A DNA stretch of 64,000 bases from a virus (IMGVR_UViG_3300001242_000012); one strand, 5' to 3'. Positions 4,878 through 43,783 are shown, counted from the first letter of the stretch. Translations and numbers: made by a program. Notes: generated by a model from the letters alone, not told the origin.

Positions 4878-4890
4878 AATTACCTCCTTA

Positions 4891-27465: not shown

Positions 27466-28689
27466 CTAGCTTGATTTAAAGTTATATATGGGCTTAATGA
27501 TGTTAACTATTTCTATAGTATCACCTGTGTTCTCGATGATCTCCTCTATGGGCTTATAAGCCATAGGAGCTTCATCTATGGTAGATTCAGTAACTGATGA
27601 AGTATAGATGCCTTTCATGGTTAGGACATAATCATTCATATCAATGTTCTTTTTAGCTTGGGACCTACTCATTAGACGTCCTGCACCATGAGGAGCTGAG
27701 AAATTCCAATCAGGGTTTCCCTTACCTATAGCAATGATGCTGCCATCACGCATGTTAATGGGAATGATTAATTTTTCTCCTAACTGAGCAGATACAGCAC
27801 CTTTGCGAAGTATCATATGCTCCAGGTCAATGTAATTATGTATTGTTTGAAAGGAATCCAGCTCACGGTATCTTAATCCTAAGCATTCCTCCACTATTCT
27901 TCTAGCCATGGTCATTCTATTTAAACTAGCATATTGCTGTATAATGGCCACATCATGAAGATATTCTTGCATTAAGGTGCCTTCTAGATAACACAGATCC
28001 TTAGGTATACTACAGGCTTTCTTGCACTCTTGCTGAAGAACCTTCAGAGCTTTTTGTATTTTATGTTCCTTACCAACTGCTTTGTATCCTTTGATTAGAG
28101 CAATCTTCATAGCTTCATAATCATCGTTGAATCCACTATGGTATCCGTAAGCACTGCCCTGGTAGTATTCTGCTACTTGCTTACCAAGGTTCCTACTTCC
28201 ACTATGTATGACTAAATATTTATTATCTTGGCTATCCACATTAATCTCGATGAAGTGATTCCCACCACCAAGGCTACCCAGAGCTTTATTAAAATCTTTG
28301 GCGATCTTACTGATACCTCTAATACAAAGTAATTTATTAATTTGATCTTTGAAATCACACTTTGATAAGACATTGATGTTATAACCGCTTGGAATGTTAT
28401 TAGTGATATAATCATCGAAATTCTTTAGATCAATATCTATATTACCTAACTCAACAACAAGCATGCCGCAGGATATGTCCACACCAACTAAGTTAGGAAC
28501 GATCTTATTCTTTATTGTCATTGTAGTTCCTATGGTACATCCAGCACCTTTATGACAATCCGGCATAATCTTAATTGAACTACCAATCGTAAATTCCTGA
28601 TTACATAATTCAATTATTTGAGATATAGTTTGCGCGTCAACATTGTCTGTAAACACTTCTGCAGTATTATGCTTACCTTTGATAATCAT
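27466..28689 (-). CDS. rtcB: RNA 3'-phosphate/2',3'-cyclic phosphate-5'-OH ligase RtcB
   Basis: MPDCHKGAGC, GGGNHFIE and SAPHGAGR (the histidine-GMP site), at the 407-aa family length. Confidence 0.9.
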   Translation of the reverse strand: MIIKGKHNTAEVFTDNVDAQTISQIIELCNQEFTIGSSIKIMPDCHKGAGCTIGTTMTIKNKIVPNLVGVDISCGMLVVELGNIDIDLKNFDDYITNNIPSGYNINVLSKCDFKDQINKLLCIRGISKIAKDFNKALGSLGGGNHFIEINVDSQDNKYLVIHSGSRNLGKQVAEYYQGSAYGYHSGFNDDYEAMKIALIKGYKAVGKEHKIQKALKVLQQECKKACSIPKDLCYLEGTLMQEYLHDVAIIQQYASLNRMTMARRIVEECLGLRYRELDSFQTIHNYIDLEHMILRKGAVSAQLGEKLIIPINMRDGSIIAIGKGNPDWNFSAPHGAGRLMSRSQAKKNIDMNDYVLTMKGIYTSSVTESTIDEAPMAYKPIEEIIENTGDTIEIVNIIKPIYNFKSS

Positions 28690-29352
28690 AATGTACCTCC
28701 ATTGAGTTTATAGATTCTATTTATTTCGTATCTATTATAATATCTGATATAGAATTTACTGTTAAAGTAACAGTATCACTACTATTAGTAAATTCTATAA
28801 GAAGATTAGTCCTTGGATTACGATGTGAACCATCATCACACACTATTACTCTACTTACTCCGGTAAATTCTTTCTCATCAGTAGTTACTCTTAACATATA
28901 GTACCTCCTAAAAGTAATTACATAATACCCACAATACAACTACTGTGATTATATAACCCCAGAATAGTACTGGCATGATACACCTTCTTATGTTCTTATT
29001 CTCTTGTAAGAGGAGCGCTAATAAAATGACGGGATTGTTTTGCACCATTGAGTGAATAAACTATCCTGCTGCAAGCCTTCAGCAAGTAAAAGCTGGGTCA
29101 TTTTATCAGGAGTAAATCTCATATTGCTTTCATAAATAGACTCCATTGTATCTATAAGGTTATATTTTGAAAGAACTGGTCTGAGAACATCCCATTCTTC
29201 GTCAGTATAATGATCAGTAATAATATGATCATTACTCCAACACTTCTGAGTATTAATAATTATAAAAAACCCGTTACTGGCTTCAGGTTCATTAATTACG
29301 CAGAAGATAAAGTTACTTAAGGAGACGTTACTTAACAATTCGTCACCTCCTA

Positions 29353-29724
29353 CTATTTTGGTGTAATAACGTAGATATACTTTTCCTCATGAACTTCGCC
29401 AGCTTCAATAGTGTGATAATGCTTCTTATCTTCCTTAGTAAATATTATCTGACTAATAAACTCATGAATTAAGCATGTTGTATAATAACTGCAATATGGA
29501 GGGTCACCTGTATCAACTCTATACTCACCTACATAAATGTTATTGAGTTTGAGTACACTTTCTCTACTATGGTATGGCATCTTAGTTGTTCCAGCATAAG
29601 GATCAACAAGCTGAACCTTTTCTGCTTCAGCCGTAGCTTCTTCAAGATGAGGAGAAATAAGAGTGAACAATCCTTCACGGACAACTTTATCGGTACCAAC
29701 TAAAGATATGATCTGTACTTGCAT
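29353..29724 (-). CDS. hypothetical protein
   Basis: 123-aa ORF. Confidence 0.4.
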   Translation of the reverse strand: MQVQIISLVGTDKVVREGLFTLISPHLEEATAEAEKVQLVDPYAGTTKMPYHSRESVLKLNNIYVGEYRVDTGDPPYCSYYTTCLIHEFISQIIFTKEDKKHYHTIEAGEVHEEKYIYVITPK

Positions 29725-29985
29725 TACTAATCACCTCACAATATGTATCTCCAGGGTCTACCAGTCTTTAGACTGATTATGTCTATATTGATTTGTCTTA
29801 AAATTCGGATCACAAGACAATCTGGTGGGATAAGTTCTGTAGCTGTACGAATTGAATCTAATAATATGCGTCTGCCTTCTTCAAGTTTAGCTACACATGT
29901 TGGGCAATACTTTTCATGATCTTCCCTTAATGTATTACATCTTAGACACCATTGCATAGTATCACCTCATAAAGCTATTACTTTA

Positions 29986-30279
29986 TTAAAGTAATAGCTT
30001 ATTTAGACTAGGATCATTCGTTAATTCATCCCAATATGCATCAGGCATTTCTTCAAGACACATTAGTATAAATCCAACAAAATGTTTCCCATGCTCATAT
30101 TCAAGTACCTCAAGCAATACCTTCTGAACATCTTTAGCTGACATTTGTTTAAACCTGTCGAGCAATGGAGGTATAAACATTACACTGTCTACACCTTTAT
30201 CATAGTAATCATAGGTGCCGAACTTTGTTATACCTTCCTTAAGAGCTGCAAGGCATTCTTGTGAAGTAATTGGTTTCAT
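29986..30279 (-). CDS. hypothetical protein
   Basis: 97-aa ORF adjacent to the ncRNA region. Confidence 0.4.
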   Translation of the reverse strand: MKPITSQECLAALKEGITKFGTYDYYDKGVDSVMFIPPLLDRFKQMSAKDVQKVLLEVLEYEHGKHFVGFILMCLEEMPDAYWDELTNDPSLNKLLL

Positions 30280-30307
30280 ATTATACTTCTTCCTTTATAT
30301 TTGTTTT

Positions 30308-31056
30308 ATGGTGGACGTAGGGGGAGTTGAACCCCCGTCCGGAACTGTTACCCTAAACCGTCTACCTAGAATAGACCATCGTGGTCAACGGCAGCACTAA
30401 GTAGCTTGCTCACTTTCATCACTGGGTAGGAGTCGAACCTACAAACTGTAATAACAGCCACGCTTCAGCGTGTAACCTCTGGGTGGACACCCGTAAGCTC
30501 ACTTAGTTACATATAGAGCCGACGTGTCGCTTTGCCAATTTGCCACCAGTGATATTTATTAACCTCCACCACTTGCATTTAGGATGCAAGAAACTATTTG
30601 CCATAGAGTAGGGATTTTAACCCTACATGGACTGAATTTCGGCCACCTACCACCATATTATCATTAGCGACTCCTTAATGGGTTAGGGTTGCACTAATGT
30701 ATGCGAGGCCAGTTTCTAATACTCTACCAGGTTGTCTTCAGAGAACGACCCATAGTTCTCCTACGTACCTTACTAGTCAGTCCTAAACCGGAAAGAGCGA
30801 TTGCTTTCGCCTTCTATGACCTATTGCCTATCTGTAGCCCTTCCGAACTACTGTTTCCGATAGGACTCTCCCATTCTTTGACCCTCATCCGATTGCTGGG
30901 ATAAGCTCGGTGTTTTGGGGCTGATCTCCCAGCTCTAAAGTTAATTAGAGACTAGGCAGCTTGAAGAGTAGTTTTGGCATTTAAAGCCTTGTGGTTATAT
31001 GGTAACCAACCTCTAGGCAAGTTTTACTCTCACGCTCCGTCGAAACCCGGTACGCC
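30308..31056 (-). ncRNA. ssrA: tmRNA-like (SsrA-like) gene, unusually long (~750 nt)
   Basis: Minus-strand 5' end GGGCGUA-CC-GGGUUUCGACGG matches the tmRNA TLD signature (compare B. subtilis GGGGACGUUACGGAUUCGACAGGG). The 3' end CGGACGGGGGUUCAACUCCCCC-UACGUCC-ACCA gives a T-arm plus an acceptor strand complementary to the 5' GGGCGUA with one G-U, then an encoded CCA. An in-frame tag-like ORF sits about 70 nt from the 5' end: GCC AAA ACU ACU CUU CAA GCU GCC UAG = AKTTLQAA*, close to B. subtilis ...GGCAAAACUAAC...GCUGCCUAA. Confidence 0.5.
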
Positions 31057-31160
31057 CATGAATGGAGCGGTATTGGACTTATTTGTCATCTGCCATCCGC
31101 TCCTGAATTAAATGTATATAAGTAAATTAGTGCTGGATTGGCCCTCACAGCTGGGCAAAG

Positions 31161-31412
31161 TTATCCATAGTTCATTAATAAGGTTTTCATCGGAACTGCA
31201 CTTACATATGGTATAGTTTGATATTCTTTAAACTTCACATCAGGATTTCTCGGTATGAATATATCGCACCTATAATTGATATCGAATAGTTTAAAATCAA
31301 ATTGTGGAAATTCACTTCCTACGAGTCCTATCACTATGATTGCTTCATCATGAATATAAACATTGCATGCATATTTAGTTACAGAACAAAAACCTACTAT
31401 TATGACAATCAC
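31161..31412 (-). CDS. hypothetical protein (GTG start)
   Basis: AAGGAGGTG ribosome-binding site 8 nt upstream of the GTG. Confidence 0.4.
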   Translation of the reverse strand: MIVIIVGFCSVTKYACNVYIHDEAIIVIGLVGSEFPQFDFKLFDINYRCDIFIPRNPDVKFKEYQTIPYVSAVPMKTLLMNYG

Positions 31413-31435
31413 CTCCTTAGATTTAATCAGGGCGG

Positions 31436-31475
31436 GCCGTGGTAGGAATCGAACCTACTTTGACTAGTCCACTAG
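31436..31475 (-). other. tRNA-like T-arm element (GUAGG-UUCGAUU-CCUAC), not foldable into a canonical tRNA
   Basis: Perfect T-loop consensus on the minus strand in an intergenic gap. No complementary 5' acceptor strand found within 100 nt. Confidence 0.3.
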
Positions 31476-31487
31476 CTAGCCCGTAAT

Positions 31488-31501
31488 GCCCCCGAAGGGG
31501 C
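31488..31501 (-). terminator. UUCG-tetraloop hairpin (GCCCC-UUCG-GGGGC) just after the SPFH gene stop
   Basis: 5-bp GC stem with a UUCG loop on the coding strand, 7 nt after the stop codon. There is no clear U-tract, so it may be a stability or processing hairpin. Confidence 0.3.
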
Positions 31502-31507
31502 GATATC

Positions 31508-32404
31508 TTATTTGAATAAGCCAGGCATACCTGAGAGTACTGACATACCAGGCGGCACCATCATAACATTAACTTTATCATTGAATTTCTCAATGGCTTT
31601 CAACTGTACAAGGGACGGTGTTAATGATTCAGCAATGATTCTGTTGGCATCTGCTTGAGCTTTAGCATCAATTGTCATAGCTTGAGCACGGCCTTGAGCT
31701 TCTGCTACAGCCTGTTTAATTTCAATTTCTTTCTTCTTAAGAATAAGTTCTGCCTGTTGAGCCTGTTGTGCAGAATTAATCTTATCATTTACGGAAGCTT
31801 GAATGCTGCTTGGTAATCTGACTTCACCGAAGTTGAATCTTTCAACAACGATTCCATCCGGTCCAAAGAACTCTTTTAAATTATTTGTGATTAAGTTACA
31901 AGCTTCTTCACGCTGATCACCTGCAATGCCAAGTACACTGTATGTTCCGGTGCAGTTTTGGGCGATGTTTTTCATGTTGGTACGGATATAAGTCTGTGCA
32001 ATGTCCTGGATATCACGGCCCCTAAACTTATTGTATACGTGGGGAGCCATAGCTGGTTCAATATGATAGGATAAATAACTGTCAATATTCACATTCAAGT
32101 TTTCCTTAGTGGGTATTAACCAAGATTCGTCTTCTGGGCTACCCTCTGTTTTAGAAGCAGTTAATTCCAAAGTTTGCGTACTTACCGGGTATTCTTGAAC
32201 TGATTGTTTAATAGGCATTATAACATGGAAGCCTTGAAGTAGAGGATCTTTTTGTACGCCGCCTTTAGCTCGATCATACAGGACACCTACTTGTCCTGGG
32301 GAAATACTGATTGTACACATAATGGCAATAACGAGAATTACAAATGCTAATATACCTCCTATGGTACCTCCAAGCACAAACTTACCATGTGTTGATAATT
32401 GCAT
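31508..32404 (-). CDS. SPFH/band-7 (HflK/C-prohibitin-like) membrane protein
   Basis: N-terminal TM helix, an SPFH core (PGQVGVLYDRAKGGV...GFHVIMP...), and a coiled-coil AQQAQQAE...AEAQGRAQAMTIDAKAQADAN. Start chosen at an internal Met with a GAGGAG RBS. Confidence 0.7.
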   Translation of the reverse strand: MQLSTHGKFVLGGTIGGILAFVILVIAIMCTISISPGQVGVLYDRAKGGVQKDPLLQGFHVIMPIKQSVQEYPVSTQTLELTASKTEGSPEDESWLIPTKENLNVNIDSYLSYHIEPAMAPHVYNKFRGRDIQDIAQTYIRTNMKNIAQNCTGTYSVLGIAGDQREEACNLITNNLKEFFGPDGIVVERFNFGEVRLPSSIQASVNDKINSAQQAQQAELILKKKEIEIKQAVAEAQGRAQAMTIDAKAQADANRIIAESLTPSLVQLKAIEKFNDKVNVMMVPPGMSVLSGMPGLFK

Positions 32405-32583
32405 ACGATCACTCCTCTTTTTTATTATCTTCGTCTTCCGGCATGGAGAAAAGATTACTAACCCATCCTCCAAATTTAACGAAGAATCTCTTTAAACCTA
32501 TGATACAGGATATAATTACTAGTATGGCAATTAAGAAGTCAATAAACAGCCACGGTCCCATCACCTCACCTCCTTAACGACTG

Positions 32584-33120
32584 CTATTGTACTGTTACCT
32601 TCACTTCATCATTAGTCATTTTGATAGTGAAGAGAGTGTCACCAACTCTAAATGACACCGGATCAGTACCAATTGTAGTTGTTATGGTAGCCTTTACAGG
32701 TTTACTTGATACAGGAGTACTTTGTGTAACTTTCTTATCGGATTCAACCTGAAGCTGTGTCTTAACTACAGCCTTATCTGTATACTTCTTAATTAGGCTT
32801 TTGAACATGCCTTTCTTAATGTAATGATCGGCAAGTTTTTTCATCCTTATCGAAGAATACCCAAGTTCTATTCCTAGATTTGAAATAACACTATCGGGTA
32901 GTGGACACCCATACTCAGATATTGCACTTTTGAGACCTTTGATAATGGATGGGACCAGGTGTTTACGATAAGCCATTACCATACTTTGGCTCGTCCTACC
33001 ACTGATTACATTCTTTGCAAAGGTAACACTGACTGGATGAGTCGGCATAAGATTTAATGCATTCTTTAAAGCATTAATCTCTGTATCCTTCCAGTTATTA
33101 ATTAACATCTTAGCGCTCAA
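32584..33120 (-). CDS. hypothetical protein
   Basis: 178-aa ORF. Confidence 0.4.
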   Translation of the reverse strand: MSAKMLINNWKDTEINALKNALNLMPTHPVSVTFAKNVISGRTSQSMVMAYRKHLVPSIIKGLKSAISEYGCPLPDSVISNLGIELGYSSIRMKKLADHYIKKGMFKSLIKKYTDKAVVKTQLQVESDKKVTQSTPVSSKPVKATITTTIGTDPVSFRVGDTLFTIKMTNDEVKVTVQ

Positions 33121-33143
33121 TTCTCTATCTCCCCTTTAATATT

Positions 33144-33701
33144 TTAACTAGCGAATCTTAACCTCAGAACCTCCTTCCTTAAGATATTATAATAATGATG
33201 AATCTTTGGATTTGTATGTTTTCTCCATTCAGATTCATTATTATCAATTAACATCTTCCTTAAATCTGTAGCAGAAGCATGTACTCCAGGTGGTCTAGGC
33301 ACAATCAACTGATGAGTATAAGGAATTGTATTTTGGTTAAACCATTCGCCTCTGCGTTCATCATTACCTGATATAAACATACCAGGAGTATCACCCAGGA
33401 AGCATTTAGCTGCAGTTAGCAAGTAGTTACCCCATGCTTCTGAAATGTCATCTTCAGTTGTTAGATCAGCTAACGGCATTATCATCAGCTTACCGGATCT
33501 AACTTCATTACTGAAGATCGTCTGGATTAGTTCAATCCTTAGATTTATGGGGAATGGATTTCTTTCATTAGGTATAATACCGGCAGATCCCACAATAACT
33601 AAAAACTTATCGCATAAAGTGAGACCAGGACGTACCAGTGACTCATGCAGGAGGTGAAAGTGTTGGAATCTACCGATACAGAAACCAGTTGATACCATGC
33701 T
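33144..33701 (-). CDS. nadM: nicotinamide-nucleotide adenylyltransferase, NadM-type (HxGH nucleotidyltransferase)
   Basis: GRFQHFHLLHE matches the archaeal/bacterial NadM G.FQPFH.GH motif. The start lies 1 nt after the nadV stop and has a GGAGGT RBS. Confidence 0.55.
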   Translation of the reverse strand, partial: SMVSTGFCIGRFQHFHLLHESLVRPGLTLCDKFLVIVGSAGIIPNERNPFPINLRIELIQTIFSNEVRSGKLMIMPLADLTTEDDISEAWGNYLLTAAKCFLGDTPGMFISGNDERRGEWFNQNTIPYTHQLIVPRPPGVHASATDLRKMLIDNNESEWRKHTNPKIHHYYNILRKEVLRLRFAS

Positions 33702-35124
33702 ACATACCTCCATATCTTGCAATGAAGTTGTTGATGAGACCTTTAATTTCATCAGAAAGAATAATACTCTCCTGAGCTCCAGTCTGCATTCTACCAAGTG
33801 CCATTGTATCATTCCAATCGAATGTTTTTATGTGAGGCACATGCATACTCGGATTCCATTCATATACAGTTTGATACAACTCGCACCCCTTATATTTGTG
33901 CAAGCTTCCTCGTGGAATTACAATCAGGTTTGTATTATCCTTACTGTGATCAAAAGTAATGTCAACTAATCCAGGAATTGATTGTTTAATTTCATCCATA
34001 CTAAGTTTCATTCTGTCTGCACCATTACTATAGGCTGTTTTCATAGCCCAGCCATTAGTATCACGCTCAAGATGCTTATAATATCCTGATCCATGTCCAT
34101 AGAAGACAAAGTCTAATGGAACACCAGCTTCAACGAGTTGAATATCTCTGATTCTGGCTATCCTCAATGACATTGATTCTCCAATGATTGTTGAACAATT
34201 GCCAGTTCCAATTTCTTGTACTGACTTATATATTTCTATGGCTTGTTCAACAACAAGTCCTGAATCAGGGCGAAGTACTACGTGCACACCAGCATTCTTT
34301 GCACGGTGAAGCAGATAGTACATATTTCTGCTGATAAATTTGTTAGCATCCCATGTGTCAATTGGCATTGCTACGATGCCCCAACCTTTAGCTGCTGCAA
34401 CATCAATTGCACGTATACAACAGTCCATTTCAACATCAAACTGCTGTGTTACCTTATGGGCTAGTGCTGGAATACTACCTATAACTGCACTAGAACCAGC
34501 ATGCTCTGCAGCCAAGAAATCATCGGTCCCATGCAGGAATAATGGCCAAGCAATTGCAGCCCAATATGCAGCTTCTTCTGAATTATGACCTCTGTAGCCG
34601 AAGCTGTGGAATCTCCACTTATACTTCTCCCAGTCAAATCCATGTTCTTTACAAGTCTGGAGTAAGTATTGCCTCATATAAAAGGCTTCTGTAGCTAGTG
34701 CCGTGGGCCACCAGCCCTTCATTAGTCTACCTTCCCACCAGGTAACGAGCTCACCAAAACCTTTAACGGTGTTCTGTATCTGAGCAAATGGAGTACCTTT
34801 TGGACACCAGATACCTTCCGGCAACATTTCAACCTTAAGTGGTATACGGCCATCAAGCTCATTGACCACTCGTCTGAATAATGCTTCAGGAAACTCAAGA
34901 TTCATAAACTTGGCCCGATTAATAGCTCTGTCAATATGTTCGTGTGTTAATATCACATTCAAACATCGTTTAGCTATCTCACTAAGACCAAATAAGATCT
35001 GGCCTGCCGCCCTATTGTACATGTGGCTCCCCTCAAAGCCAACATCAATCTTGAAACTCCCATGTCCAAGATTATAGGTATCGGTATGAAATAATGGATT
35101 TTGACCTAGTGTCTCTAAACTCAT
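33700..35124 (-). CDS. nadV: nicotinamide phosphoribosyltransferase (NadV/NAMPT)
   Basis: N-terminal NPLFHTDTYNLGHG (TDSYK.SH-type), at the ~475-aa family length. Confidence 0.7.
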   Translation of the reverse strand: MSLETLGQNPLFHTDTYNLGHGSFKIDVGFEGSHMYNRAAGQILFGLSEIAKRCLNVILTHEHIDRAINRAKFMNLEFPEALFRRVVNELDGRIPLKVEMLPEGIWCPKGTPFAQIQNTVKGFGELVTWWEGRLMKGWWPTALATEAFYMRQYLLQTCKEHGFDWEKYKWRFHSFGYRGHNSEEAAYWAAIAWPLFLHGTDDFLAAEHAGSSAVIGSIPALAHKVTQQFDVEMDCCIRAIDVAAAKGWGIVAMPIDTWDANKFISRNMYYLLHRAKNAGVHVVLRPDSGLVVEQAIEIYKSVQEIGTGNCSTIIGESMSLRIARIRDIQLVEAGVPLDFVFYGHGSGYYKHLERDTNGWAMKTAYSNGADRMKLSMDEIKQSIPGLVDITFDHSKDNTNLIVIPRGSLHKYKGCELYQTVYEWNPSMHVPHIKTFDWNDTMALGRMQTGAQESIILSDEIKGLINNFIARYGGM

Positions 35125-35147
35125 CCTAATCTCTCCCCTTTATTTAA

Positions 35148-35588
35148 TTATTTCTTATAGATGTGGATTGTGTTCTCCCTAAACACTTCATCTATGATGT
35201 TCCTTATAACTGACCATGATGCCCCGCCTAGCCCACACCCTATGCCACAAGGAACACCAACTTTCTTACCTGGTGTAGAATCAATCAACAGCTTTACTCT
35301 ATTGCAGCATAATCTGAATGCTTCTTCATTTGTGTGCTTACCTGTCCTACCATAAGTAGCTTGAGCACACATACTTACAAATGTTAATTTAGGTAGGTAA
35401 GTAATTACTATGTTTCCTAAGGTAAGTCTACCATTTCTGTAAGCGGTCATATAGTCTAGGTAAACTTGGGGAAACATCTCTCTTATCTGACCAGCTATAC
35501 CTGATGCAAATTTACCACAGGAATTAACTTGATGAAGCATAATATTACAGTCAGAAGTTAATAGATTACCTGATATGTCAATTAACAT
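35148..35588 (-). CDS. macro-domain protein (ADP-ribose binding/hydrolase)
   Basis: HQVNSCGKFASGIAGQI, which is a diverged form of the NAAN...GGG motif, and VPCGIGCGLGG, the macro Gly-rich loop 2. Confidence 0.55.
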   Translation of the reverse strand: MLIDISGNLLTSDCNIMLHQVNSCGKFASGIAGQIREMFPQVYLDYMTAYRNGRLTLGNIVITYLPKLTFVSMCAQATYGRTGKHTNEEAFRLCCNRVKLLIDSTPGKKVGVPCGIGCGLGGASWSVIRNIIDEVFRENTIHIYKK

Positions 35589-35596
35589 ATAACCTC

Positions 35597-35932
35597 CTAA
35601 CCAGCAGCAATCAATAATGGCTGCTTAACTTCGTTGAACATAAGTTGTTTCATGTATATAATCAAAGGAATTATTTGTGCTTCAGGAAAGTCCTCATGCA
35701 CATTAATACATGCGCCTACTTTATTGAGTCTCAGCATAAATACATTATTAGTATCCACTGAACCTTCATCGTCAGTAAGCACAAAGCCCCAACCTGCACT
35801 ACCATAATCATTATAATATAAATTGGGGTAAAAACCAAGTCTCTCTACCATTGCATTAATTAATTCATGCTGATGATAATTTGGTATTCCACAGAATGTA
35901 TTCCATCTTGTTATGTCATAATAATCCATCAA
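35597..35932 (-). CDS. hypothetical protein
   Basis: 111-aa ORF. Confidence 0.4.
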   Translation of the reverse strand: MMDYYDITRWNTFCGIPNYHQHELINAMVERLGFYPNLYYNDYGSAGWGFVLTDDEGSVDTNNVFMLRLNKVGACINVHEDFPEAQIIPLIIYMKQLMFNEVKQPLLIAAG

Positions 35933-37482: not shown

Positions 37483-38052
37483 TCACCTCAATAATGAATT
37501 TAAATTATGATAAGCCTGGTTGATCTCTGCAAATCTATCATGATCACCAGTGTCCTTATTGTCCGGATGATAACGTTGAGCTAGTTTCCAGTACCTATCC
37601 TTAATCATCTTTAGATTAAGACTACTGACTTTAGGTTCAAGATTTAGAACTACTAGCCAATCCTCAACTGTCTTACTAATCAGGTTATTCCTCTGAGTAG
37701 TACTTAATTTTTCTTGAGCAAGCTTAGCACGTTCCTCGTGTATCTTCTTGGCCCATTCCTTTATGGCCTCTTTTGTTACTTCTTGTCTTTCAATCATTTG
37801 TATGTTGGAATAATAAAGACGATATTTACGTATGATGTATAATACAATGATTTCATGAATTAATGCTGTGAGAGATAGCAGTGAGAATAAGATATCATAA
37901 AGTACATAAGATACTACTATAGACGAAAGGAAGATCATAAGAGAGGCATTATTTGCGTCACTACCAAGCTCATTACCAATAACATTTATCTTGGTTGACT
38001 TGGATTTAAAGAACAGTGTATACCAGAACTTTAATATACTCATTCCGCCCAC
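37483..38052 (-). CDS. membrane-anchored J-domain protein (DjlA-like architecture)
   Basis: N-terminal hydrophobic helices, then a C-terminal J-domain IKDRYWKLAQRYHPDNKDTGDHDRFAEINQAYHNL with the HPD tripeptide. Confidence 0.65.
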   Translation of the reverse strand: MGGMSILKFWYTLFFKSKSTKINVIGNELGSDANNASLMIFLSSIVVSYVLYDILFSLLSLTALIHEIIVLYIIRKYRLYYSNIQMIERQEVTKEAIKEWAKKIHEERAKLAQEKLSTTQRNNLISKTVEDWLVVLNLEPKVSSLNLKMIKDRYWKLAQRYHPDNKDTGDHDRFAEINQAYHNLNSLLR

Positions 38053-38573
38053 TCCTTTATTATAGTATGGGCTTCGTTGAGAACTTTAAACTTTACCTCA
38101 CTCCCTGTATCTTTCCTATCAGGGTGAAGAACTTTAGCCAGGTCACGATATTTACTACGGATAACGTTCATGTCCCTGGTTTGTTGCAGTTCCATTACAG
38201 CAAAGGCTTCAGCTACAGTCATTTTCTTACGAGGCTTAGGCTTAGGTTTAGGTGCTTCTACTTTAGGTCTACCATTAGCCATCAGAATTTCATTATCGAT
38301 CTCATCTAACGTATCAGCAGCTCGCTCATATTCAGCATATTTCTCTTGAAGAGTTTTACCGTATGCTTTAAGTTCCTCAACTTTACGTTCATAGCGAGCT
38401 TTAAGACCTTCCATTATAGCTTCTTCCTTGCTGTATACTTCAAAGGCTTCCTCAAGCCTACCTTTATATAGTTCATAGTTTTGCTCAGCATTATACTTAC
38501 GTCTGAGTAATCCAATATTCACTGTCTTGGCATTACCTAGGAATTTTAACAATTCACTAAGACTTGGTGGCAA
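38040..38573 (-). CDS. J-domain protein (coiled-coil N-terminus)
   Basis: C-terminal IRSKYRDLAKVLHPDRKDTG...LNEAHTIIKEW carries the HPD motif. Tandem with the previous J protein. Confidence 0.65.
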   Translation of the reverse strand: MPPSLSELLKFLGNAKTVNIGLLRRKYNAEQNYELYKGRLEEAFEVYSKEEAIMEGLKARYERKVEELKAYGKTLQEKYAEYERAADTLDEIDNEILMANGRPKVEAPKPKPKPRKKMTVAEAFAVMELQQTRDMNVIRSKYRDLAKVLHPDRKDTGSEVKFKVLNEAHTIIKEWAE

Positions 38574-40125
38574 GTTTACACCCCCAAATATTTTTCTTTT
38601 AATTCTTTAAGTCTAGGAGCACCAATGAGTTTAAACTCATCTCGATTGCCAAAGGCAGATCTCCATCTAGCACTGCACTTCTTACTACAGAATAAACTCT
38701 TCTTGAGTGCAGCAGCCTTCTTACAATTGATGCAGATCATATATCCTCCTAATTAAGTATAGCAATCTTCCAATTATTAGCTATAACACCTATATCTAAG
38801 ATAAAACGTGGGCTTAGCATCCAACCTATATCAGGTACAAGCTCCTTTTTCTCATTAAGCACAGGATCTGGTTTTTCGACATAGGCTAGATCCATAGTTA
38901 ATAAAGGTATGCTATCTAGTAAACTAGTCAGCTCAATCACCTCCGTAAAATTCTTGATATGTAAGATACATAATTTCTGCATCTTCAGTAGATATTATAG
39001 CAGGTATACCAGTATCTTGTATACCATTTTGTTTCACCTTTACATACTGAATTCCTGAAACACATTTGCGAGCGAATATAAGTTTGCCCTCTGCAGTAAA
39101 ACCGAAGAATACAAATCCACTCTTAGCATAATGTTCTTTTAATGTTTCAATATCCATAGCATCACTCCTTCTCAACAAAAATAGGGCTGATACTATTCAG
39201 CCCTACTAGTATAATGCTTTTTAAGCCCAAATACAGCAACACTAAACATCGATATAAAGAAGATTACTTGGACGTAATATAAAAAATAACTTGTACTTAG
39301 GTATGTTAGTATAGTTATAACTTGGTGTGGATATAAATTCCTTGGTATTTGAAGGGTATGTTTGATGGCTGCATTAAGTCCTATAGGATACAGAGATACG
39401 GCGATTATAATGCCAGCTAAGAGTATTATTGCAAGTTCAAGTTTATTATTGGTCAACATCTCTTTGATTGTTTTGATTACGTATTTCCCTCCTATCATTA
39501 ATATTATCAATGATAGTCATGACTAAAAAATATAGCACTATGACGGTAACACCAGTAGCCATGATGCATATTAATAACCCGATATATGACCAAAAACCCA
39601 TAGTTTACTCCCTCCTCGTCATAACTTATATTTAGCTTCTTTCTCTTTATGCTTCCTCCTTTCTTCTATGAACGATAAATACATCATATATATAGCGTAC
39701 GCAGCACCGCATGTTAGTACAATAAGTAGTAGTACAAAAAAGTATCCAAACAGTATATCTCCCATCAGAACACCTCCTTAAAAAAAGAATAGGTGGTAGA
39801 GGAGACTACCACCTTAGTATGATGTGTGAAATTAAGTGCTACCTCCTTCCAGCTTATTAAGGTCAATCAACTAACTTATACGGGATAGATTACACCTAGG
39901 CAGGTACCTATGGCGTAACTGTATAGAAACACATATAGTGTAACTAGCAAAGCCATATTTCAACTAGGTTTGCTACTGTAGAGCAGTAGCAACTTTTATT
40001 TCTTAAAGCACAATTTAAGCAACAAATTGAATGAACCTTTCTGTTGTTTACTGTGCAATCTAGATTAATTGTATTACAATGTTTTGTACAATATCCTTCT
40101 ACATAATTCTCACATTTTAATACAC

Positions 40126-40467
40126 TCATGCAACTTCTCCTAAGTATTTAGCCCCTAAGCTCTTAAGTATCAGGGCTAATACTATTCTATGACAGAATTT
40201 ATTCTTCTTACAGAAGCACTTAAGAACTATATAATTCTGATCTAGTAGCCACTTCCACCTATCAGCATACTTAATCTGTGAATCGAGCATCATCTTATAA
40301 TAGACTTCTATGTACTGGTCATCAGTTATCTTACCTTGTTGATGATCACGTACAATTTTCCAACTAGGAGCGAATGTCTCATCACCAGTTATATCAGCTG
40401 TCTTTCTTGTTATATCAAGACCACTAAGTCCGTTATAACTCATATCAGCTGTTCGAATGTGTAACAA
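40126..40467 (-). CDS. hypothetical protein (DUF488/DUF4326-like C-terminus, weak)
   Basis: ...LKCFCKKNKFCHRIVLALIL resembles the C...CHR motif of those families. Confidence 0.3.
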   Translation of the reverse strand: MLHIRTADMSYNGLSGLDITRKTADITGDETFAPSWKIVRDHQQGKITDDQYIEVYYKMMLDSQIKYADRWKWLLDQNYIVLKCFCKKNKFCHRIVLALILKSLGAKYLGEVA

Positions 40468-40653
40468 AGAACTTCACTCCATTCCTGATGCAACTTCTAA
40501 TTGTACCACAATTACAATCTGCTTCAAGTTGAGAGCAGTTTATGCAGCATACCATTAAATCCGCGTTAGGTTCTACTTCTTCGTGCAATATCTTTCTCTT
40601 TAATCTGGGGCACATTATACTGCACATCCCATCTTTGAATTCAGTGCATTCAA

Positions 40654-41052
40654 TTATAGTAATGTTGTCGGACATCCTGCCTCCATCCAATCCTTAATGA
40701 ATTTATCTCCATCAAGATGGTACTCCATGTGAGCAGAAGGGATATCACCTTCTAGATCTATAATTGGGACAATACTTGCATATTGATTAAGATGCTTATC
40801 TGGAACCTTAATATATACAATATTCTTATCATTGAATAGATCATTGCACTGAATAGCAAGTTTTTCAGGAATTGCAATTTCAACTCTATATTCAGAATAA
40901 GAATTTACATACGACTTAATAACTGAGATATCAAGATCCTTACCTGCTGCCTTTCTCAGTTCACCCAGCAGTTTTAATCCAACTTCTATATTAGGAAGAT
41001 CAACTGCTCTAGTATCAACATTCTTACTACAAGCACAAACTATGAATTGCAT
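40654..41052 (-). CDS. hypothetical protein
   Basis: Start chosen at MQFIVCA with an AAGGAG RBS. Confidence 0.45.
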   Translation of the reverse strand: MQFIVCACSKNVDTRAVDLPNIEVGLKLLGELRKAAGKDLDISVIKSYVNSYSEYRVEIAIPEKLAIQCNDLFNDKNIVYIKVPDKHLNQYASIVPIIDLEGDIPSAHMEYHLDGDKFIKDWMEAGCPTTLL

Positions 41053-41175: not shown

Positions 41176-41751
41176 TTATACAGCAGTTTTACTGATTAGT
41201 AAATTATATCTACTGATAGCTGAATTCAATGCAGGAGCTATGATGTTAGCCATCTTCATTACAATATTCAATCTGGTATTTTGTAAAACAAGGTATTCCA
41301 TATAGCCAGCTACATTTACTATTCCAATAATATGAATGCATCCTACGGGAGGTAATTTCTTATTTACACCAGATCCAGGGTGTATAGGGCCATCTTCTAT
41401 GCGTACATGTCCTATATTCTCTGATTTGCCAAGACAAGCATCAATAGCAATTATGAATGCACCTGGGTGATTAGCATTAATTATCTCAATTGTTTCTTCT
41501 AAATCACTTGCACCAACTGGCTTATCTAATGTTCCATACAAGTGGAACTCATTATCCATTGAGCTCAGTATATGTCCAGTTAACGGTCCTAAGCTGTCAC
41601 CTGTGGAACGGTCAGTTCCTATGCAAATGACAACTATGGATTGAAATAGATATACTTTATACTTAAATAAGTAGTCAAATATAAAGTTTGAGAAGACTCT
41701 TGAGCCAGTTTGTAGATCTAAAGTATTATCTTCCAAACTAACATATTGCAT
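41176..41751 (-). CDS. YyaC-family (GPR/HybD-like) putative sporulation-associated protease
   Basis: ICIGTDRSTGDSLGPLTG matches the YyaC/DUF1256 signature GTDRSTGDxLGPLxG. Confidence 0.55.
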   Translation of the reverse strand: MQYVSLEDNTLDLQTGSRVFSNFIFDYLFKYKVYLFQSIVVICIGTDRSTGDSLGPLTGHILSSMDNEFHLYGTLDKPVGASDLEETIEIINANHPGAFIIAIDACLGKSENIGHVRIEDGPIHPGSGVNKKLPPVGCIHIIGIVNVAGYMEYLVLQNTRLNIVMKMANIIAPALNSAISRYNLLISKTAV

Positions 41752-42116: not shown

Positions 42117-42684
42117 TCCTCCTATAATTTACTCCATACACCTCTCATGAAAAGAGGTGAGAGCAGTAAATTAACACCTCTTCTCATAACATTGCCAGCA
42201 CATCTTATCCTCATAGACAACCTGTGCATCTTCAGGTAGTGACTCAACACCACACAGGTCAACAGATTCAAATATGTCCTCAAGCATTTCCATGTTCTCT
42301 TCTCTGTTGACCTTAGTTCCACAACTAACACACCTACCCATTGTTATCTAACTCCTTTATTCTTCTACTTAATGTTGCACAAGAGCAGTCAGCACTTAAC
42401 TTAGAGCAATTTATACAGCAAAACTTATCGCCTGTTTTAGAACATGGTGCTGATTTACATATTCCATTACTGAAGAATCCACAGTTTTTAACTAAATTAT
42501 ACACCTTACCTCCTATAAGTAATGATGAATATATATAGAGATACTAGTACTGCAATAAATAGCGATCCTATCATCCCATAAAATATCACTAACTCTACTA
42601 TTGAAGGTGGAGTAACAATAGAGATATCCGGCGGTTTAATTATAGGTGCTGGCATAGGCATAAGAAACACATATTAACCTCCAG

Positions 42685-43227
42685 TTATGAAAGAACTTTT
42701 ACCATATAAGCATATACAGCTGCAATAGATTTGAGGCAGCTGATCTCACCACTATCTATCTTACCCAATACATCGGGAATTGGAATCCCGACTACTTCTA
42801 TGTTCTCATTCTCTGTGGGCTCTGGATTGCCTTCAGTGAGATCGGTTGCAAGTAGTATATGTATATTCTCAGTTAAGAATCCTGGTGAACTTAAACCAGA
42901 AAGTAGAGTCTCAATGCTACCAGCAGTATATCCAGTTTCCTCCTTGAATTCCCTTAGACCAGCCATATATTTAGATTCGCCTGGATCTATCTTACCAGCT
43001 GGAAGTTCTAGAAGTATTCTTCCTACAGCATGCCTATACTGCCTGATAAAGATCATATTGTTACTCTTGTCGATACCTAATATAGCTACAGCATTACAAG
43101 ATTCAACGACCTCTCTTATTGTAGGCTTACAATCATCCACTTGCACTTTATCAACTCTTACGGCCATCCTTTTTCCTCGGAATACAGTTTCACCATGTAT
43201 TAACTTTTCAATCTTAGCTGGCATCAT
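42685..43227 (-). CDS. NUDIX hydrolase (ADP-ribose pyrophosphatase-like)
   Basis: Nudix box LPAGKIDPGESKYMAGLREFKEETGY (Gx5Ex7REUxEExGU). Confidence 0.75.
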   Translation of the reverse strand: MMPAKIEKLIHGETVFRGKRMAVRVDKVQVDDCKPTIREVVESCNAVAILGIDKSNNMIFIRQYRHAVGRILLELPAGKIDPGESKYMAGLREFKEETGYTAGSIETLLSGLSSPGFLTENIHILLATDLTEGNPEPTENENIEVVGIPIPDVLGKIDSGEISCLKSIAAVYAYMVKVLS

Positions 43228-43376: not shown

Positions 43377-43571
43377 TCATTCATTATCCTCCAATTCTAT
43401 TAATTTCATATACCGAACTATACCCTTACAATAAGGGCACATATATACATATAGATTTCTGCGTAGTTTATCAGTAATACTAGTAATCTGACCAAAGAAT
43501 TTGGTAGTAGCCTTATCCCATTCTTCCTCAGAATTTATAGCATCACATTTGGGACATATATGTTTAATCAT
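43377..43571 (-). CDS. zinc-ribbon protein, tandem paralog 1
   Basis: CPKCD...EWD...CPYCKG. Confidence 0.5.
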   Translation of the reverse strand: MIKHICPKCDAINSEEEWDKATTKFFGQITSITDKLRRNLYVYMCPYCKGIVRYMKLIELEDNE

Positions 43572-43783
43572 CTCTTCAGCTTTATGTTCAACTTTGTTAA
43601 TATAAGTTGAACAAATTCAGACTTTTTCCCACAATGAGGACAATGATAATAGCAACCATTCCTATTCTTTAAATCTGTCATGGACACTATTCTATTATAA
43701 TATTTAAGAGTTCCATTATCCCATTCACCAAAGGTGCTCATCTTATCACACCTTGGGCAAATAGCTGCATCAATAGTTAACAT
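43568..43783 (-). CDS. zinc-ribbon protein, tandem paralog 2
   Basis: CPRCD...EWD...CPHCGK. Confidence 0.5.
   Translation of the reverse strand: MLTIDAAICPRCDKMSTFGEWDNGTLKYYNRIVSMTDLKNRNGCYYHCPHCGKKSEFVQLILTKLNIKLKR

What the first reader, a model, noticed from the sequence alone, without database searches (positions are those of the whole stretch)
33144..35588. NAD+ salvage and ADP-ribose processing block: NadV - NadM-type NMNAT - macro domain (plus Nudix at 42685-43227)
NadV (NAMPT) and a NadM-type NMN adenylyltransferase overlap by 1 nt between stop and start. A macro-domain protein follows immediately, and a Nudix ADP-ribose-pyrophosphatase-like gene lies 7 kb downstream. NadV plus NMNAT is the phage NAD reconstitution route that counters NAD-depleting defences (Thoeris, DSR, SIR2/TIR systems). 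Using an archaeal-type NadM rather than the bifunctional NatV, together with a co-operonic macro domain, is a less common configuration. The macro domain may hydrolyse ADP-ribose-derived immune signals or remove ADP-ribosylation.
Basis: partly seen in the sequence, partly recalled or inferred. Interest (0 to 1): 0.55.

Follow-up and report, generated by a model that had tools for sequence, protein, structure and literature searches.

The report
Phage NAD+ rebuilding genes with macro domain
A large groundwater phage carries a very divergent copy of the known two-enzyme phage pathway that rebuilds NAD+ from nicotinamide, packed against a macro-domain enzyme of the kind recently shown to help phages beat NAD+-destroying bacterial defences; it is an unreported arrangement of known parts, not a new system.

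Summary
All lie on the minus strand.

- **NadV (35124..33700):** a NAMPT-type nicotinamide phosphoribosyltransferase. Every key human NAMPT residue is kept, including D219 and H247.
- **NMNAT (33698..33144):** a standalone NadM-type enzyme with its catalytic residues intact.
- **Macro (35588..35148):** an ALC1-like macro domain with His19, Asn22 and Gln76.
- **Nudix (43227..42685):** an ADP-ribose pyrophosphatase.

Three details need correcting. NadV and NMNAT are separated by one base (TAG-C-ATG) and do not overlap. The macro gene comes first in the direction of transcription. The Nudix gene lies upstream, beyond two terminator-like hairpins.

I also found a PnuC-type transporter gene at 22559..21981.

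The NadV-NMNAT pair is NARP2-type. No Adps homologue lies in the window. All 13 related loci also have NadV followed directly by NadM.

The macro belongs to the family found in Adps-macro-Namat ("NARP1-AP") operons, where one member is a proven ADPR-1''-phosphate phosphatase. Next to a NARP2 pair I saw it only here, in 1 of 14 clade loci. Its substrate is unresolved: ADPR-1''-phosphate, or ADP-ribosylated DNA or protein.

Verdict: a new variant of a known kind, of modest interest.

The parts
35148..35588 (-). Macro-domain protein, 146 aa. It belongs to the ALC1-like class and carries His19, Asn22, Ser29 and Gln76. It is the first gene of the three-gene block, 8 nt after the preceding ORF and 23 nt before NadV.
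   Evidence: Pfam Macro 38 bits. phrog_335 'phosphatase' E 8.9e-29. Family profile against the PDB: BT1257 1.4e-21, SCO6735 5.9e-17, DarG 8.6e-15, Poa1p 1.7e-13, TARG1 5e-12. AlphaFold model pLDDT 91.2. Foldseek TM 0.81-0.89 to DarG, BT1257, Poa1p, TARG1 and SCO6735. Best match among cultured phages is the macro gene inside the Adps-macro-Namat operon of Vibrio phage RYC, 34% identity over 99% of the protein.
33700..35124 (-). NadV, a NAMPT-type nicotinamide phosphoribosyltransferase of 474 aa. It is very divergent: about 27% identity to NadV of cultured phages.
   Evidence: phrog_448 E 6.1e-48. NCBIfam PRK09198 E 7e-45. PDB hits are NAMPT structures only (7yqo 2.1e-24, human NAMPT about 5e-19). 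Active-site residues map onto human NAMPT, whose sequence I verified as identical to 2gvg. In 13 of 13 related loci the homologue (45-48% identity) is followed directly by a NadM-like gene.
33144..33698 (-). Standalone NadM-type NMN adenylyltransferase, 184 aa. It is probably translationally coupled to NadV (TAG-C-ATG, with GGAGG 8 nt upstream). The usual HxGH motif reads H-L-L-H here.
   Evidence: NCBIfam best hits are all NadM or NadM-Nudix families (E 6.3e-12 to 1e-10). Exhaustive search: 838 representatives, mostly about 180 aa. Profile against the PDB: 2qjt 1.7e-25, 2qjo 3.5e-25, 1f9a 4e-24. Model pLDDT 93.9, with 2qjo the top Foldseek hit at TM 0.80. Family consensus is GRFQxxHxGH ... 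ISATxxR.
33696..33702 (-). Junction between NadV and NMNAT. The NadV stop TAG is 33702..33700, base 33699 is a single spacer, and the NMNAT ATG is 33698..33696.
   Evidence: Read directly from the sequence.
42685..43227 (-). Nudix ADP-ribose pyrophosphatase (NudF/YqkG-like), 180 aa. It lies 7 kb upstream of the block and is probably a separate transcription unit.
   Evidence: Pfam NUDIX 45.1 bits. PDB ADP-ribose pyrophosphatases: 8wv3 5e-26, 1mk1 1.6e-23, 1v8i 1.8e-21. NCBIfam NudE 4.4e-23. The Nudix box GKIDPGESKYMAGLREFKEETGY is complete, and an SPG proline lies 15 residues after it (read; the proline signature is from my own knowledge).
21981..22559 (-). PnuC-type nicotinamide riboside transporter, 186-192 aa with at least 4 hydrophobic helices. 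It lies 11 kb downstream of the block. No NadR-type kinase was found in the window.
   Evidence: Pfam NMN_transporter 85.8 bits, profile positions 3-175 of 175. Hydrophobicity scan. No Walker-A motif except in the MoxR-like ATPase and its neighbouring ORF.
39180..39814 (-). Two terminator-like hairpins (39207..39180 and 39814..39791) lying between the Nudix gene and the macro-NadV-NMNAT block.
   Evidence: Consensus scan: 12 terminator-like sites found against 5.9 +/- 2.4 expected from shuffles. These two have the longest stems, 11 and 9 pairs. Function is not shown.

Best explanation
**What it is.** The block is a NARP2-type phage NAD+ reconstitution module with ADP-ribose-processing accessories.

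**Steps shown by homology and conserved catalytic residues**
- NadV joins nicotinamide to PRPP to make NMN. The phospho-histidine equivalent (H247) is kept, so ATP-coupled catalysis is likely.
- The NadM-type enzyme, probably translationally coupled to NadV, adenylates NMN to NAD+.
- The Nudix enzyme, encoded 7 kb away, splits free ADP-ribose into AMP and ribose-5-phosphate.

**Inferred steps**
- The macro-domain enzyme, transcribed just ahead of NadV, releases free ADP-ribose from a 1''-substituted derivative.
- I favour ADPR-1''-phosphate as that substrate. This is the product of RES-domain NADases, and a family member (Adpp) dephosphorylates it in NARP1-AP operons.
- Macro plus Nudix would then turn defence-generated ADPR or ADPR-1''P into ribose-5-phosphate.
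- Host Prs converts ribose-5-phosphate to PRPP for NadV. This closes the loop and eases the PRPP drain that makes NARP2 costly.
- PnuC could bring in nicotinamide riboside as an extra precursor.

**Net effect.** NAD+ stays available during infection despite NAD+-depleting defences such as Thoeris, DSR, SIR2-HerA and aRES.
For: **Enzyme identities and residues:**

**Gene coupling**
- 1-nt spacer with an SD sequence between NadV and NMNAT; 23-nt gap between macro and NadV.
- NadV is followed directly by a NadM-like gene in 13 of 13 related loci, with a separate Nudix gene next in five of them.

**Against NARP1**
- No Adps (Prs-like) homologue in the window by tblastn or Pfam.

**Macro family linked to NAD+ reconstitution**
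- 25 of 80 viral macro loci carry Adps and Namat beside the macro gene.
- Vibrio phage RYC has an Adps-macro-Namat operon.
- Homologue P0005 sits in a Namat-macro-NadE-NADAR locus.
- Ser29 is found in 9 of 9 NARP1-context lineages against 11 of 42 other sequences, and the window protein has it.

**Literature**
- NARP2 defined and shown to defeat NAD+ depletion: bioRxiv 10.1101/2024.02.11.579819.
- Adpp is an ADPR-1''P phosphatase: bioRxiv 10.64898/2026.01.28.702374.
- PnuC-NadR forms NARP3: PMC13464706.
Against: - Nothing here is biochemical; every step rests on homology or context.
- The macro protein is equally distant (33-39% identity) from NARP1-context and other macros, so no orthology to Adpp can be claimed.
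- Its N22/Q76 pair is exactly the pair shown essential in SCO6735, a DNA and protein de-ADP-ribosylase (PMC9411070).
- Poa1p S30 is not conserved; the window has K26 there (my alignment, from memory of the Poa1p sequence).
- None of the other 13 loci of this NadV clade has a macro gene nearby. The adjacency could be an accident of one genome.
- NARP2 alone already cancels aRES in the published test, so the need for a phosphatase is not obvious.
- The HxGH motif of the NMNAT reads HLLH.
- Only 64 kb of a 244-kb genome was seen. An Adps or NadR gene could lie elsewhere.
- Many NadM-like loci have no NadV within 8 kb.
Confidence: 0.7

Rival explanations
1. The macro protein is an independent counter-defence enzyme that strips ADP-ribose from phage DNA or proteins. 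It would be an orphan antitoxin of the DarG / AdfM / SCO6735 kind, acting against DarT-type toxins. On this reading it only happens to sit next to the NAD+ genes, and the link is simply that both answer NAD+-consuming defences.
For: - The top fold matches include the DarG macro domain (5m3e, TM 0.86), and DarG is the best NCBIfam match (E 4.6e-14).
- N22 and Q76 align with SCO6735 N27 and Q85. Mutating either of those abolishes removal of thymidine-linked ADP-ribose, and SCO6735 rescues cells from DarT (PMC9411070).
- Phage macro proteins that neutralise DarT2 are known (AdfM, PMC13309987).
- No other locus of this NadV clade has a macro gene.
Against: - The catalytic lysine of DarG (K80) and AdfM (K78) is a glutamine here.
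- The SCO6735 DNA-binding lysines K34 and K89 do not align with lysines in the window protein (my reading).
- The family recurs inside NAD+ reconstitution operons in at least 9 lineages, and a member from such an operon is a proven ADPR-1''P phosphatase.
- Chance adjacency to NadV in a genome I estimate at about 400 genes is roughly 0.5%.
Confidence: 0.3
2. The genes are ordinary auxiliary metabolic genes. They raise NAD+ for the phage's own replication in a nutrient-poor groundwater host and are not aimed at any defence system.
For: - NARP2 raises NAD+ whether or not a defence system is present (bioRxiv 10.1101/2024.02.11.579819).
- NadV is found in 33% of jumbo phages and macro domains in 56% (PMC9503650).
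- A PnuC importer suits precursor scavenging.
Against: - The two readings do not exclude each other.
- The accompanying macro and ADPR pyrophosphatase act on NAD+ breakdown products, not on precursors.
- Published knock-in experiments show that the pathway's benefit appears against NAD+-depleting defences.
Confidence: 0.25
3. The macro domain serves RNA repair. It would dephosphorylate the ADPR-1''-phosphate produced when a Tpt1/KptA enzyme removes 2'-phosphates during tRNA repair. This would fit the conserved neighbourhood with the RtcB ligase.
For: - RtcB lies at 27466..28689.
- RtcB, a NAD+ PRTase and an SPFH/Band7 gene recur together in Rhizobium phage B1VFA. They recur with a macro gene in about 20 viral contigs.
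- Poa1p, a structural neighbour (TM 0.88), does exactly this job in yeast.
Against: - No Tpt1/KptA, ART or 2H phosphoesterase was detected by Pfam in the ORFs scanned.
- RtcB joins 2',3'-cyclic phosphate ends directly. It leaves no 2'-phosphate and uses GTP, not NAD+ (established knowledge).
Confidence: 0.1
4. The PRTase is a Namat, not a Nampt. The block would then be a NARP1-AP pathway whose Adps gene lies outside the window.
For: - Namat and Nampt are homologous.
- The macro family is typical of NARP1-AP operons.
- Only 64 of 244 kb was seen.
Against: - No Adps homologue lies in the window. In the NARP1 loci seen here Adps lies within a few kb of Namat.
- RYC Namat does not hit the window PRTase at E 1e-3, although it hits classical NadV at 1e-33 to 1e-36.
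- The gene is probably translationally coupled to an NMNAT, as in all 13 relatives.
- Published surveys found no phage with both NARP1 and NARP2.
Confidence: 0.05

Closest known systems
NARP2 (Vibrio phage KVP40 NadV + NatV; Lee et al. 2017, Osterman et al. 2024)
   Same: Both pair a NAMPT-type PRTase with a NadM-type NMN adenylyltransferase. An ADP-ribose-cleaving Nudix activity is also encoded by the phage. The expected chemistry is nicotinamide + PRPP -> NMN -> NAD+.
   Different: - The proteins are only about 27% identical to those of cultured phages.
- NadM and Nudix are separate genes 7 kb apart instead of one bifunctional NatV.
- A macro gene is packed directly upstream of NadV.
- The NMNAT motif reads HLLH, not HxGH.
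NARP1-AP (Adps - Adpp macro phosphatase - Namat; Vibrio phage Gary, bioRxiv 10.64898/2026.01.28.702374). The same layout occurs in Vibrio phage RYC.
   Same: A macro-domain gene of the same sequence family (34% identity to the RYC protein) sits directly next to a NadV-family PRTase within a NAD+ reconstitution block. His19, Asn22, Ser29 and Gln76 are shared.
   Different: - There is no Adps gene in the window.
- The PRTase belongs to another clade and is paired with an NMNAT.
- ADP-ribose would be routed through a Nudix enzyme and host Prs, not through ADPR-PP.
SCO6735 / BT1257 subclass of ALC1-like macro domains (PMC9411070), and the phage anti-DarT macro protein AdfM (PMC13309987)
   Same: They share the fold (TM 0.83-0.89) and give the best profile matches. 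The Asn/Gln pair matches SCO6735 N27/Q85.
   Different: - DarG and AdfM use a catalytic lysine, which is absent here.
- The SCO6735 DNA-binding lysines are not aligned with lysines in the window protein.
- SCO6735 is a chromosomal gene with no link to NAD+ salvage.
NARP3 (PnuC + NadR; PMC13464706)
   Same: A phage-encoded PnuC-type transporter is present.
   Different: - No NadR or any small P-loop kinase lies in the window.
- PnuC is 11 kb from the NMNAT gene and not in an operon with it.
NadM-Nudix of Francisella and Synechocystis (2qjt, 2qjo) and archaeal NMNAT (1f9a, 1ej2)
   Same: They share the fold and catalytic residues. These are the best sequence-profile and structure matches.
   Different: The window protein lacks the fused Nudix domain of the bacterial enzymes. 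Sequence identity is only about 20%.
NAD+ gene neighbourhood of Rhizobium phage B1VFA
   Same: RtcB, the NAD+ salvage genes and an SPFH/prohibitin gene lie within a few kb of each other, as in the window.
   Different: B1VFA has a fused NadM-Nudix gene placed ahead of NadV, and no macro gene in the stretch examined.

Membership tests
NARP2 (phage Nampt + Nmnat pathway) | A NAMPT-type PRTase with the nicotinamide-specific active site | tested here: met
   Only NAMPT structures are hit in the PDB. Y18, F193, R196, D219, H247, R311, D313, G353, R392, K400 and K423 are conserved; D354 is E and G384 is S.
NARP2 (phage Nampt + Nmnat pathway) | An NMN adenylyltransferase encoded with the PRTase | tested here: met
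   The NadM-type gene starts 1 nt after the NadV stop codon. Its identity rests. The same pairing occurs in 13 of 13 related loci.
NARP2 (phage Nampt + Nmnat pathway) | No Adps gene in the same phage (published surveys found no phage with both NARP1 and NARP2) | tested here: inconclusive
   No Adps homologue lies in the 64-kb window. The other 180 kb of the contig was not available.
NARP2 (phage Nampt + Nmnat pathway) | Makes NAD+ from nicotinamide, PRPP and ATP, and rescues phage from NAD+-depleting defence | not testable with these tools
   This needs enzyme assays and infection assays.
NadM-type NMNAT | Nucleotidyltransferase fold with the (H/T)xGH and ISxTxxR motifs and the catalytic Arg | tested here: met
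   R10, H15, H18, S142-x-T144-x-x-R147 are present. The glycine of HxGH is a leucine (HLLH), which is rare in the family. Model TM 0.80 to 2qjo.
NadM-type NMNAT | Closer to NMNAT than to PPAT, GCT or FAD-synthase relatives | tested here: met
   Profile E-values are 1e-25 against NadM structures and 1e-6 to 1e-5 against PPAT and GCT. All 65 family members hit the NadM NCBIfam models.
Adpp (NARP-associated macro phosphatase) | Poa1p-like / ALC1-like macro fold with the conserved His (Poa1p H23) | tested here: met
   Foldseek TM to Poa1p is 0.88. H19 is at least 90% conserved in the family. The equivalence to H23 rests on my recalled Poa1p sequence and the mutant names in the PDB list.
Adpp (NARP-associated macro phosphatase) | Encoded inside a NAD+ reconstitution operon, next to the PRTase | tested here: met
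   The gene ends 23 nt upstream of NadV. The operon is NARP2-type, however, not NARP1-type.
Adpp (NARP-associated macro phosphatase) | Orthology to characterised Adpp, and ADPR-1''P phosphatase activity | tested here: inconclusive
   Identity is 34% to the RYC operon macro. The window protein is equally distant (33-39%) from macros in other contexts. Ser29 agrees with all 9 NARP1-context lineages. Activity cannot be tested here.
NARP1 / NARP1-AP | An Adps (Prs-like ADPR pyrophosphokinase) gene beside the PRTase | tested here: not met
   tblastn with RYC Adps finds nothing in the window but hits the NARP1-type loci. No Prs-type Pfam domain was found.
DarG / AdfM macro antitoxins | Catalytic lysine (DarG K80, AdfM K78) | tested here: not met
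   The aligned position is Gln76, which is invariant in the family.
SCO6735-type ALC1-like macro domain | The Asn27 / Gln85 pair required for activity | tested here: met
   In the profile alignment to 5e3b, N22 and Q76 fall on N27 and Q85 once the 20-residue tag offset is removed (PMC9411070).
Nudix ADP-ribose pyrophosphatase | Complete Nudix box, plus closest similarity to characterised ADPRases | tested here: met
   The box GX5EX7REUXEEXGU is intact. The best PDB matches are all ADPR pyrophosphatases, E 5e-26 to 1e-21.
NARP3 (PnuC + NadR) | PnuC transporter together with a bifunctional NadR (ribosylnicotinamide kinase + NMNAT) | tested here: not met
   PnuC is present. No AAA_28 or NadR hit and no small Walker-A protein were found in the window.

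The most novel reading that the evidence does not exclude
The phage runs a closed recycling loop that has not been described, a "NARP2 with an associated phosphatase".

- The macro enzyme turns ADPR-1''-phosphate, made by RES-type NADases, into ADP-ribose.
- The phage Nudix enzyme turns ADP-ribose into ribose-5-phosphate.
- Host Prs regenerates PRPP from it.
- NadV and NadM rebuild NAD+.

The phage would then recover both halves of the NAD+ molecule that defence systems destroy, without Adps. It would also avoid the PRPP drain that makes plain NARP2 costly.
Probability: 0.3. Interest if true: 0.5.

Novelty: new variant of a known kind. Interest (0 to 1): 0.35.

Why it matters
NAD+ depletion is one of the commonest ways bacteria stop phages, and three phage pathways that rebuild NAD+ have been described since 2024. 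This locus shows two things.

- The NARP2 pathway exists in uncultivated groundwater jumbo phages in a form so divergent that standard Pfam thresholds barely detect it.
- Its parts can be shuffled. The adenylyltransferase and the Nudix hydrolase are separate genes. A lone PnuC is present. A macro-domain gene of the family so far tied only to NARP1 is attached to it.

If the macro enzyme proves to be an ADPR-1''-phosphate phosphatase here, phosphatase-assisted recycling would not be limited to NARP1. Surveys that look only around Adps/Namat pairs would then under-count it.

The practical value is modest. The locus offers candidate enzymes for testing and a caution for annotation pipelines.

Tried and rejected
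**Searches that found nothing or failed**
- A nucleotide search of the block against 50,697 phage records found nothing. The phage has no close cultured relative.
- A single-protein scan of IMG/VR with the NMNAT found nothing. The 65-sequence alignment was too diverse to seed a scan. A 10-sequence alignment worked.
- Two look-ups of window ORFs by exact product failed, probably because my start codons differ from the public gene calls.
- Rfam at gathering thresholds found no RNA family in the window. ARAGORN found no tRNA or tmRNA.

**An error I corrected**
- I first read the 'HSFG' and 'AWPLF' motifs of NadV as loss of NAMPT D219 and H247.
- That came from mis-remembering which motif carries which residue number.
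- Mapping onto the human sequence, which I verified as identical to PDB 2gvg, showed that both residues are conserved. I dropped the idea of a nicotinate-type or histidine-less enzyme.

**Ideas tested and not supported**
- A nicotinamide riboside kinase to partner PnuC: no Walker-A protein other than the MoxR-like ATPase and its neighbouring ORF.
- Promoter mapping: the consensus scan gave fewer sites than shuffled sequence (48 against 57.8), so I drew no promoter conclusion.
- A basic residue at macro position 26 as an Adpp signature: after de-replication it holds in only 4 of 9 lineages, so I dropped it. Ser29 holds in 9 of 9.
- Placing the window macro within a NARP1-specific branch: identities are flat at 33-39% to all groups, so no assignment was possible.


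Full report
**Source and layout**

The window belongs to a 244-kb contig from the Rifle groundwater metagenome (ANAN16-1 scaffold_26). The same protein is seen on 22 contigs.
- G+C is 32-44%, and almost every gene is on the minus strand.
- No cultured phage shares nucleotide similarity with the block.
- I take it to be a jumbo phage on gene content: SNF2 helicase, RtcB and many small ORFs with no known family.

On the coding strand the order is:
- a 111-aa ORF (35932..35597)
- macro (35588..35148)
- NadV (35124..33700)
- NMNAT (33698..33144)
- a 174-aa ORF
- a 50-aa ORF
- an SPFH/Band7 gene (32404..31508)

The gaps are 8 nt before macro, 23 nt before NadV, 1 nt before NMNAT and 35 nt before the 174-aa ORF. 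Each of these four starts is preceded by a Shine-Dalgarno-like sequence.

**Checking the observation**

The NMNAT start is 33698, not 33701.
- The junction reads TAG-C-ATG, a one-base spacer with GGAGG 8 nt upstream of the ATG. It is not an overlap.
- Public gene calls use the same 184-aa product.

The macro gene precedes NadV in transcription. The Nudix gene (43227..42685) lies 7 kb upstream, beyond two terminator-like hairpins.

Family matches exist for all four proteins but are weak by Pfam standards. For that reason I tested each identity further.

**NadV**
- PHROG 448 matches at E 6.1e-48 and NCBIfam PRK09198 at E 7e-45.
- All 32 solved structures hit at E <= 1e-3 are nicotinamide phosphoribosyltransferases. 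None is a nicotinate enzyme.
- I aligned it with human NAMPT, having first confirmed that my recalled sequence is identical to PDB 2gvg.
- Conserved residues:
  - Y18 and F193, the nicotinamide sandwich
  - R196
  - D219, the residue that selects nicotinamide over nicotinate
  - H247, the phospho-histidine
  - R311, D313, G353, R392, K400 and K423
- D354 is Glu throughout this clade, and G384 is Ser in the window protein. The roles of these residues are established knowledge of NAMPT, not tested here.
- The closest cultured-phage proteins are only about 27% identical. A clade of viral-contig proteins is 45-48% identical.

**NMNAT**
- The single-sequence evidence was thin: Pfam 21 bits, and the best PDB hit at E 8e-6.
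- An exhaustive search found 838 cluster representatives, mostly about 180 aa.
- A 65-member alignment gives the consensus GRFQxxHxGH ... RNPF ... ISATxxR.
- The profile of that alignment hits the NadM-Nudix enzymes of Francisella and Synechocystis and the M. jannaschii NMNAT at E 1.7e-25 to 4e-24. Pantetheine-phosphate and glycerol-3-phosphate transferases reach only about 1e-6 to 1e-5.
- All 65 members hit the NadM NCBIfam models.
- The AlphaFold model is confident (pLDDT 93.9). Its best structural match is NadM 2qjo at TM 0.80.
- R10, H15, H18 and R147 correspond to R11, H16, H19 and R136 of the M. thermoautotrophicum enzyme, the residues mutated in deposited structures.
- One oddity: the glycine of HxGH is a leucine here.
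- A relative fused to an isochorismatase (nicotinamidase-like) domain also ties the family to pyridine metabolism.

**Nudix and PnuC**
- The Nudix protein has a complete Nudix box. Its best matches are characterised ADP-ribose pyrophosphatases, E 5e-26 to 1e-21.
- The same scans, together with the precomputed Pfam annotation of the central 20 kb, found none of the following:
  - Prs/Adps
  - NadR kinase
  - Tpt1/KptA
  - ADP-ribosyltransferase
  - sirtuin

**Macro domain**

Fold and class:
- The model (pLDDT 91.2) superposes on DarG, BT1257, Poa1p, TARG1 and SCO6735 at TM 0.81-0.89. This is the ALC1-like class.
- The family profile matches BT1257 and SCO6735 best.

Active-site residues:
- The catalytic lysine of TARG1, DarG and the phage protein AdfM is an invariant glutamine here (Q76).
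- N22 and Q76 align with SCO6735 N27 and Q85. Mutating either of those abolishes removal of thymidine-linked ADP-ribose (PMC9411070).
- H19 is at least 90% conserved in the family.

Genomic context of the family:
- A January 2026 preprint showed that 15% of NARP1 operons contain a Poa1p-like macro protein, Adpp. It dephosphorylates ADPR-1''-phosphate, the product of RES-domain NADases, so that NARP1 can use it (bioRxiv 10.64898/2026.01.28.702374).
- The best cultured-phage match of the window macro (34% identity, 99% coverage) lies in exactly such an operon in Vibrio phage RYC: Prs-like, macro, 562-aa PRTase.
- Among 80 viral macro loci, 25 carry Adps and Namat beside the macro gene. They often also carry NadE, RtcB, Band7 and NADAR.
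- The window protein is equally distant (33-39%) from macros in NARP1 context and in other contexts.
- One position separates the two groups: Ser29 in 9 of 9 NARP1-context lineages against 11 of 42 other sequences. The window protein has Ser.

**Which pathway**
- The window has no Adps homologue.
- Its PRTase is not detected by the RYC Namat at E 1e-3, although classical NadV proteins are.
- The PRTase is probably translationally coupled to an NMNAT.
- In the 13 other loci of the same NadV clade, a NadM-like gene follows directly. In five of them a separate Nudix gene follows that.

This is the NARP2 logic (bioRxiv 10.1101/2024.02.11.579819). None of those 13 loci has a macro gene within 8 kb. 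The macro-NadV-NadM triple is therefore unique in my sample. It joins a NARP2 pair to a macro family otherwise seen with NARP1.

**How it probably works**
- Shown by homology and conserved residues:
  - NadV makes NMN.
  - NadM makes NAD+.
  - Nudix cleaves ADP-ribose.
- Inferred:
  - The macro enzyme frees ADP-ribose from a 1''-substituted form. I favour ADPR-1''-phosphate over ADP-ribosylated DNA or protein, at roughly 45 to 35.
  - The Nudix product, ribose-5-phosphate, returns to PRPP through host Prs.
  - PnuC supplies extra precursor.

The rivals are set out separately. The main one is that the macro protein is an unrelated anti-DarT-type enzyme.

**Comparison with what is known**

A 2022 survey of viral NAD+/ADP-ribose systems reports (PMC9503650):
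- NadV in 33% of jumbo phages and macro domains in 56%
- NadM always together with NadV
- NADAR genes in NadV/NadM neighbourhoods

NARP2, NARP1-AP, NARP3 and phage macro antitoxins are all published. The window is therefore a very divergent member of a known pathway. Three features vary from the published forms:
- NadM and Nudix as separate genes
- a lone PnuC
- an Adpp-family macro gene attached to a NARP2 pair

I found no report of the last feature in the papers I read.

**Limits**
- Nothing was tested biochemically.
- Only 64 of 244 kb was visible.
- The viral loci are heavily redundant; many come from one gut dataset.
- My Poa1p residue equivalences rest on a recalled sequence.

Noticed in passing
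window 30309..31057 (-), inside the ORF-poor stretch 30280..31507: A tmRNA-like gene about 750 nt long, roughly twice the usual size. Its 5' end GGGCGUA pairs with UACGUCC before a terminal ACCA, giving a 7-bp acceptor stem with a G3:U pair. A T-arm (GGGGGUUCAACUCCCCC) is present, and a possible tag frame GCC AAA ACU ACU CUU CAA GCU GCC UAG reads AKTTLQAA*. Rfam tmRNA scores 29.6 bits (cut-off 47; E 5e-10), and ARAGORN does not call it. Other T-arm-like hairpins lie near 31455, 30620 and 30440. RtcB is 2 kb downstream.
   Followed up: partly
window 4017..7037 (-): Three consecutive genes encode a prokaryotic E2 (6318..7037, Prok-E2_D), a JAB deubiquitinase-like protein (4891..6318) and a ThiF-type E1 (4017..4877). 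Together they form a ubiquitin-like conjugation set inside a phage genome.
   Followed up: partly
window 27466..35588; L094 (Rhizobium phage B1VFA); L110-L142 and related viral loci: RtcB ligase, the NAD+ genes and an SPFH/Band7 (prohibitin-like) gene recur within a few kb of each other in distantly related phages, although the proteins are only 27-50% identical. The reason for the SPFH and RtcB linkage is unexplained.
   Followed up: partly
L014, L021, L033, L049, L044 (IMG/VR viral contigs): NARP1-type operons (Adps, Namat, macro) are here followed by an NH3-type NAD synthetase (NadE). A NadM-like gene lies within 8 kb. A NARP1 phage carrying an NMNAT-like gene as well is not what the published NARP1/NARP2 dichotomy predicts.
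   Followed up: no
window 39944..40129, 40445..40690, 42334..42504, 44240..44551 (-): Four small ORFs share a cysteine-rich motif of the form CC(I/L)NC(S/A)...(D/E/S)C.C. They look like a paralogous family of small zinc-binding proteins scattered between the Nudix gene and the macro block. A second set of three tandem 64-71-aa ORFs (43377..43977) shares CPxCD...CPxCG motifs.
   Followed up: no
window 37483..38573 (-): Two adjacent genes each end in a DnaJ (J-domain) module.
   Followed up: no
window 9068..11145 (-): A MoxR-like AAA_5 ATPase (9925..11145) lies next to an ORF that probably carries the VWA_CoxE domain (9068..9946). I did not map the VWA domain to this ORF directly.
   Followed up: no
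window 18781..19335 (-): A DprA/SLOG-like protein: DNA_processg_A at E 1.3e-12, and SLOG cluster 4 at E 1.9e-4. SLOG domains have been proposed to sense or process ADP-ribose derivatives in phages (PMC9503650), so it may belong to the same NAD+/ADPr network.
   Followed up: no
window 41176..41751 (-) and one ORF in alignment A4: A DUF1256 (YyaC-like, germination-protease fold; E 2.3e-58) protein and a YodL-like protein are present. The Nudix protein is closest to ADPRases that I believe are Bacillus-type. Together these hint at a Firmicutes host.
   Followed up: no
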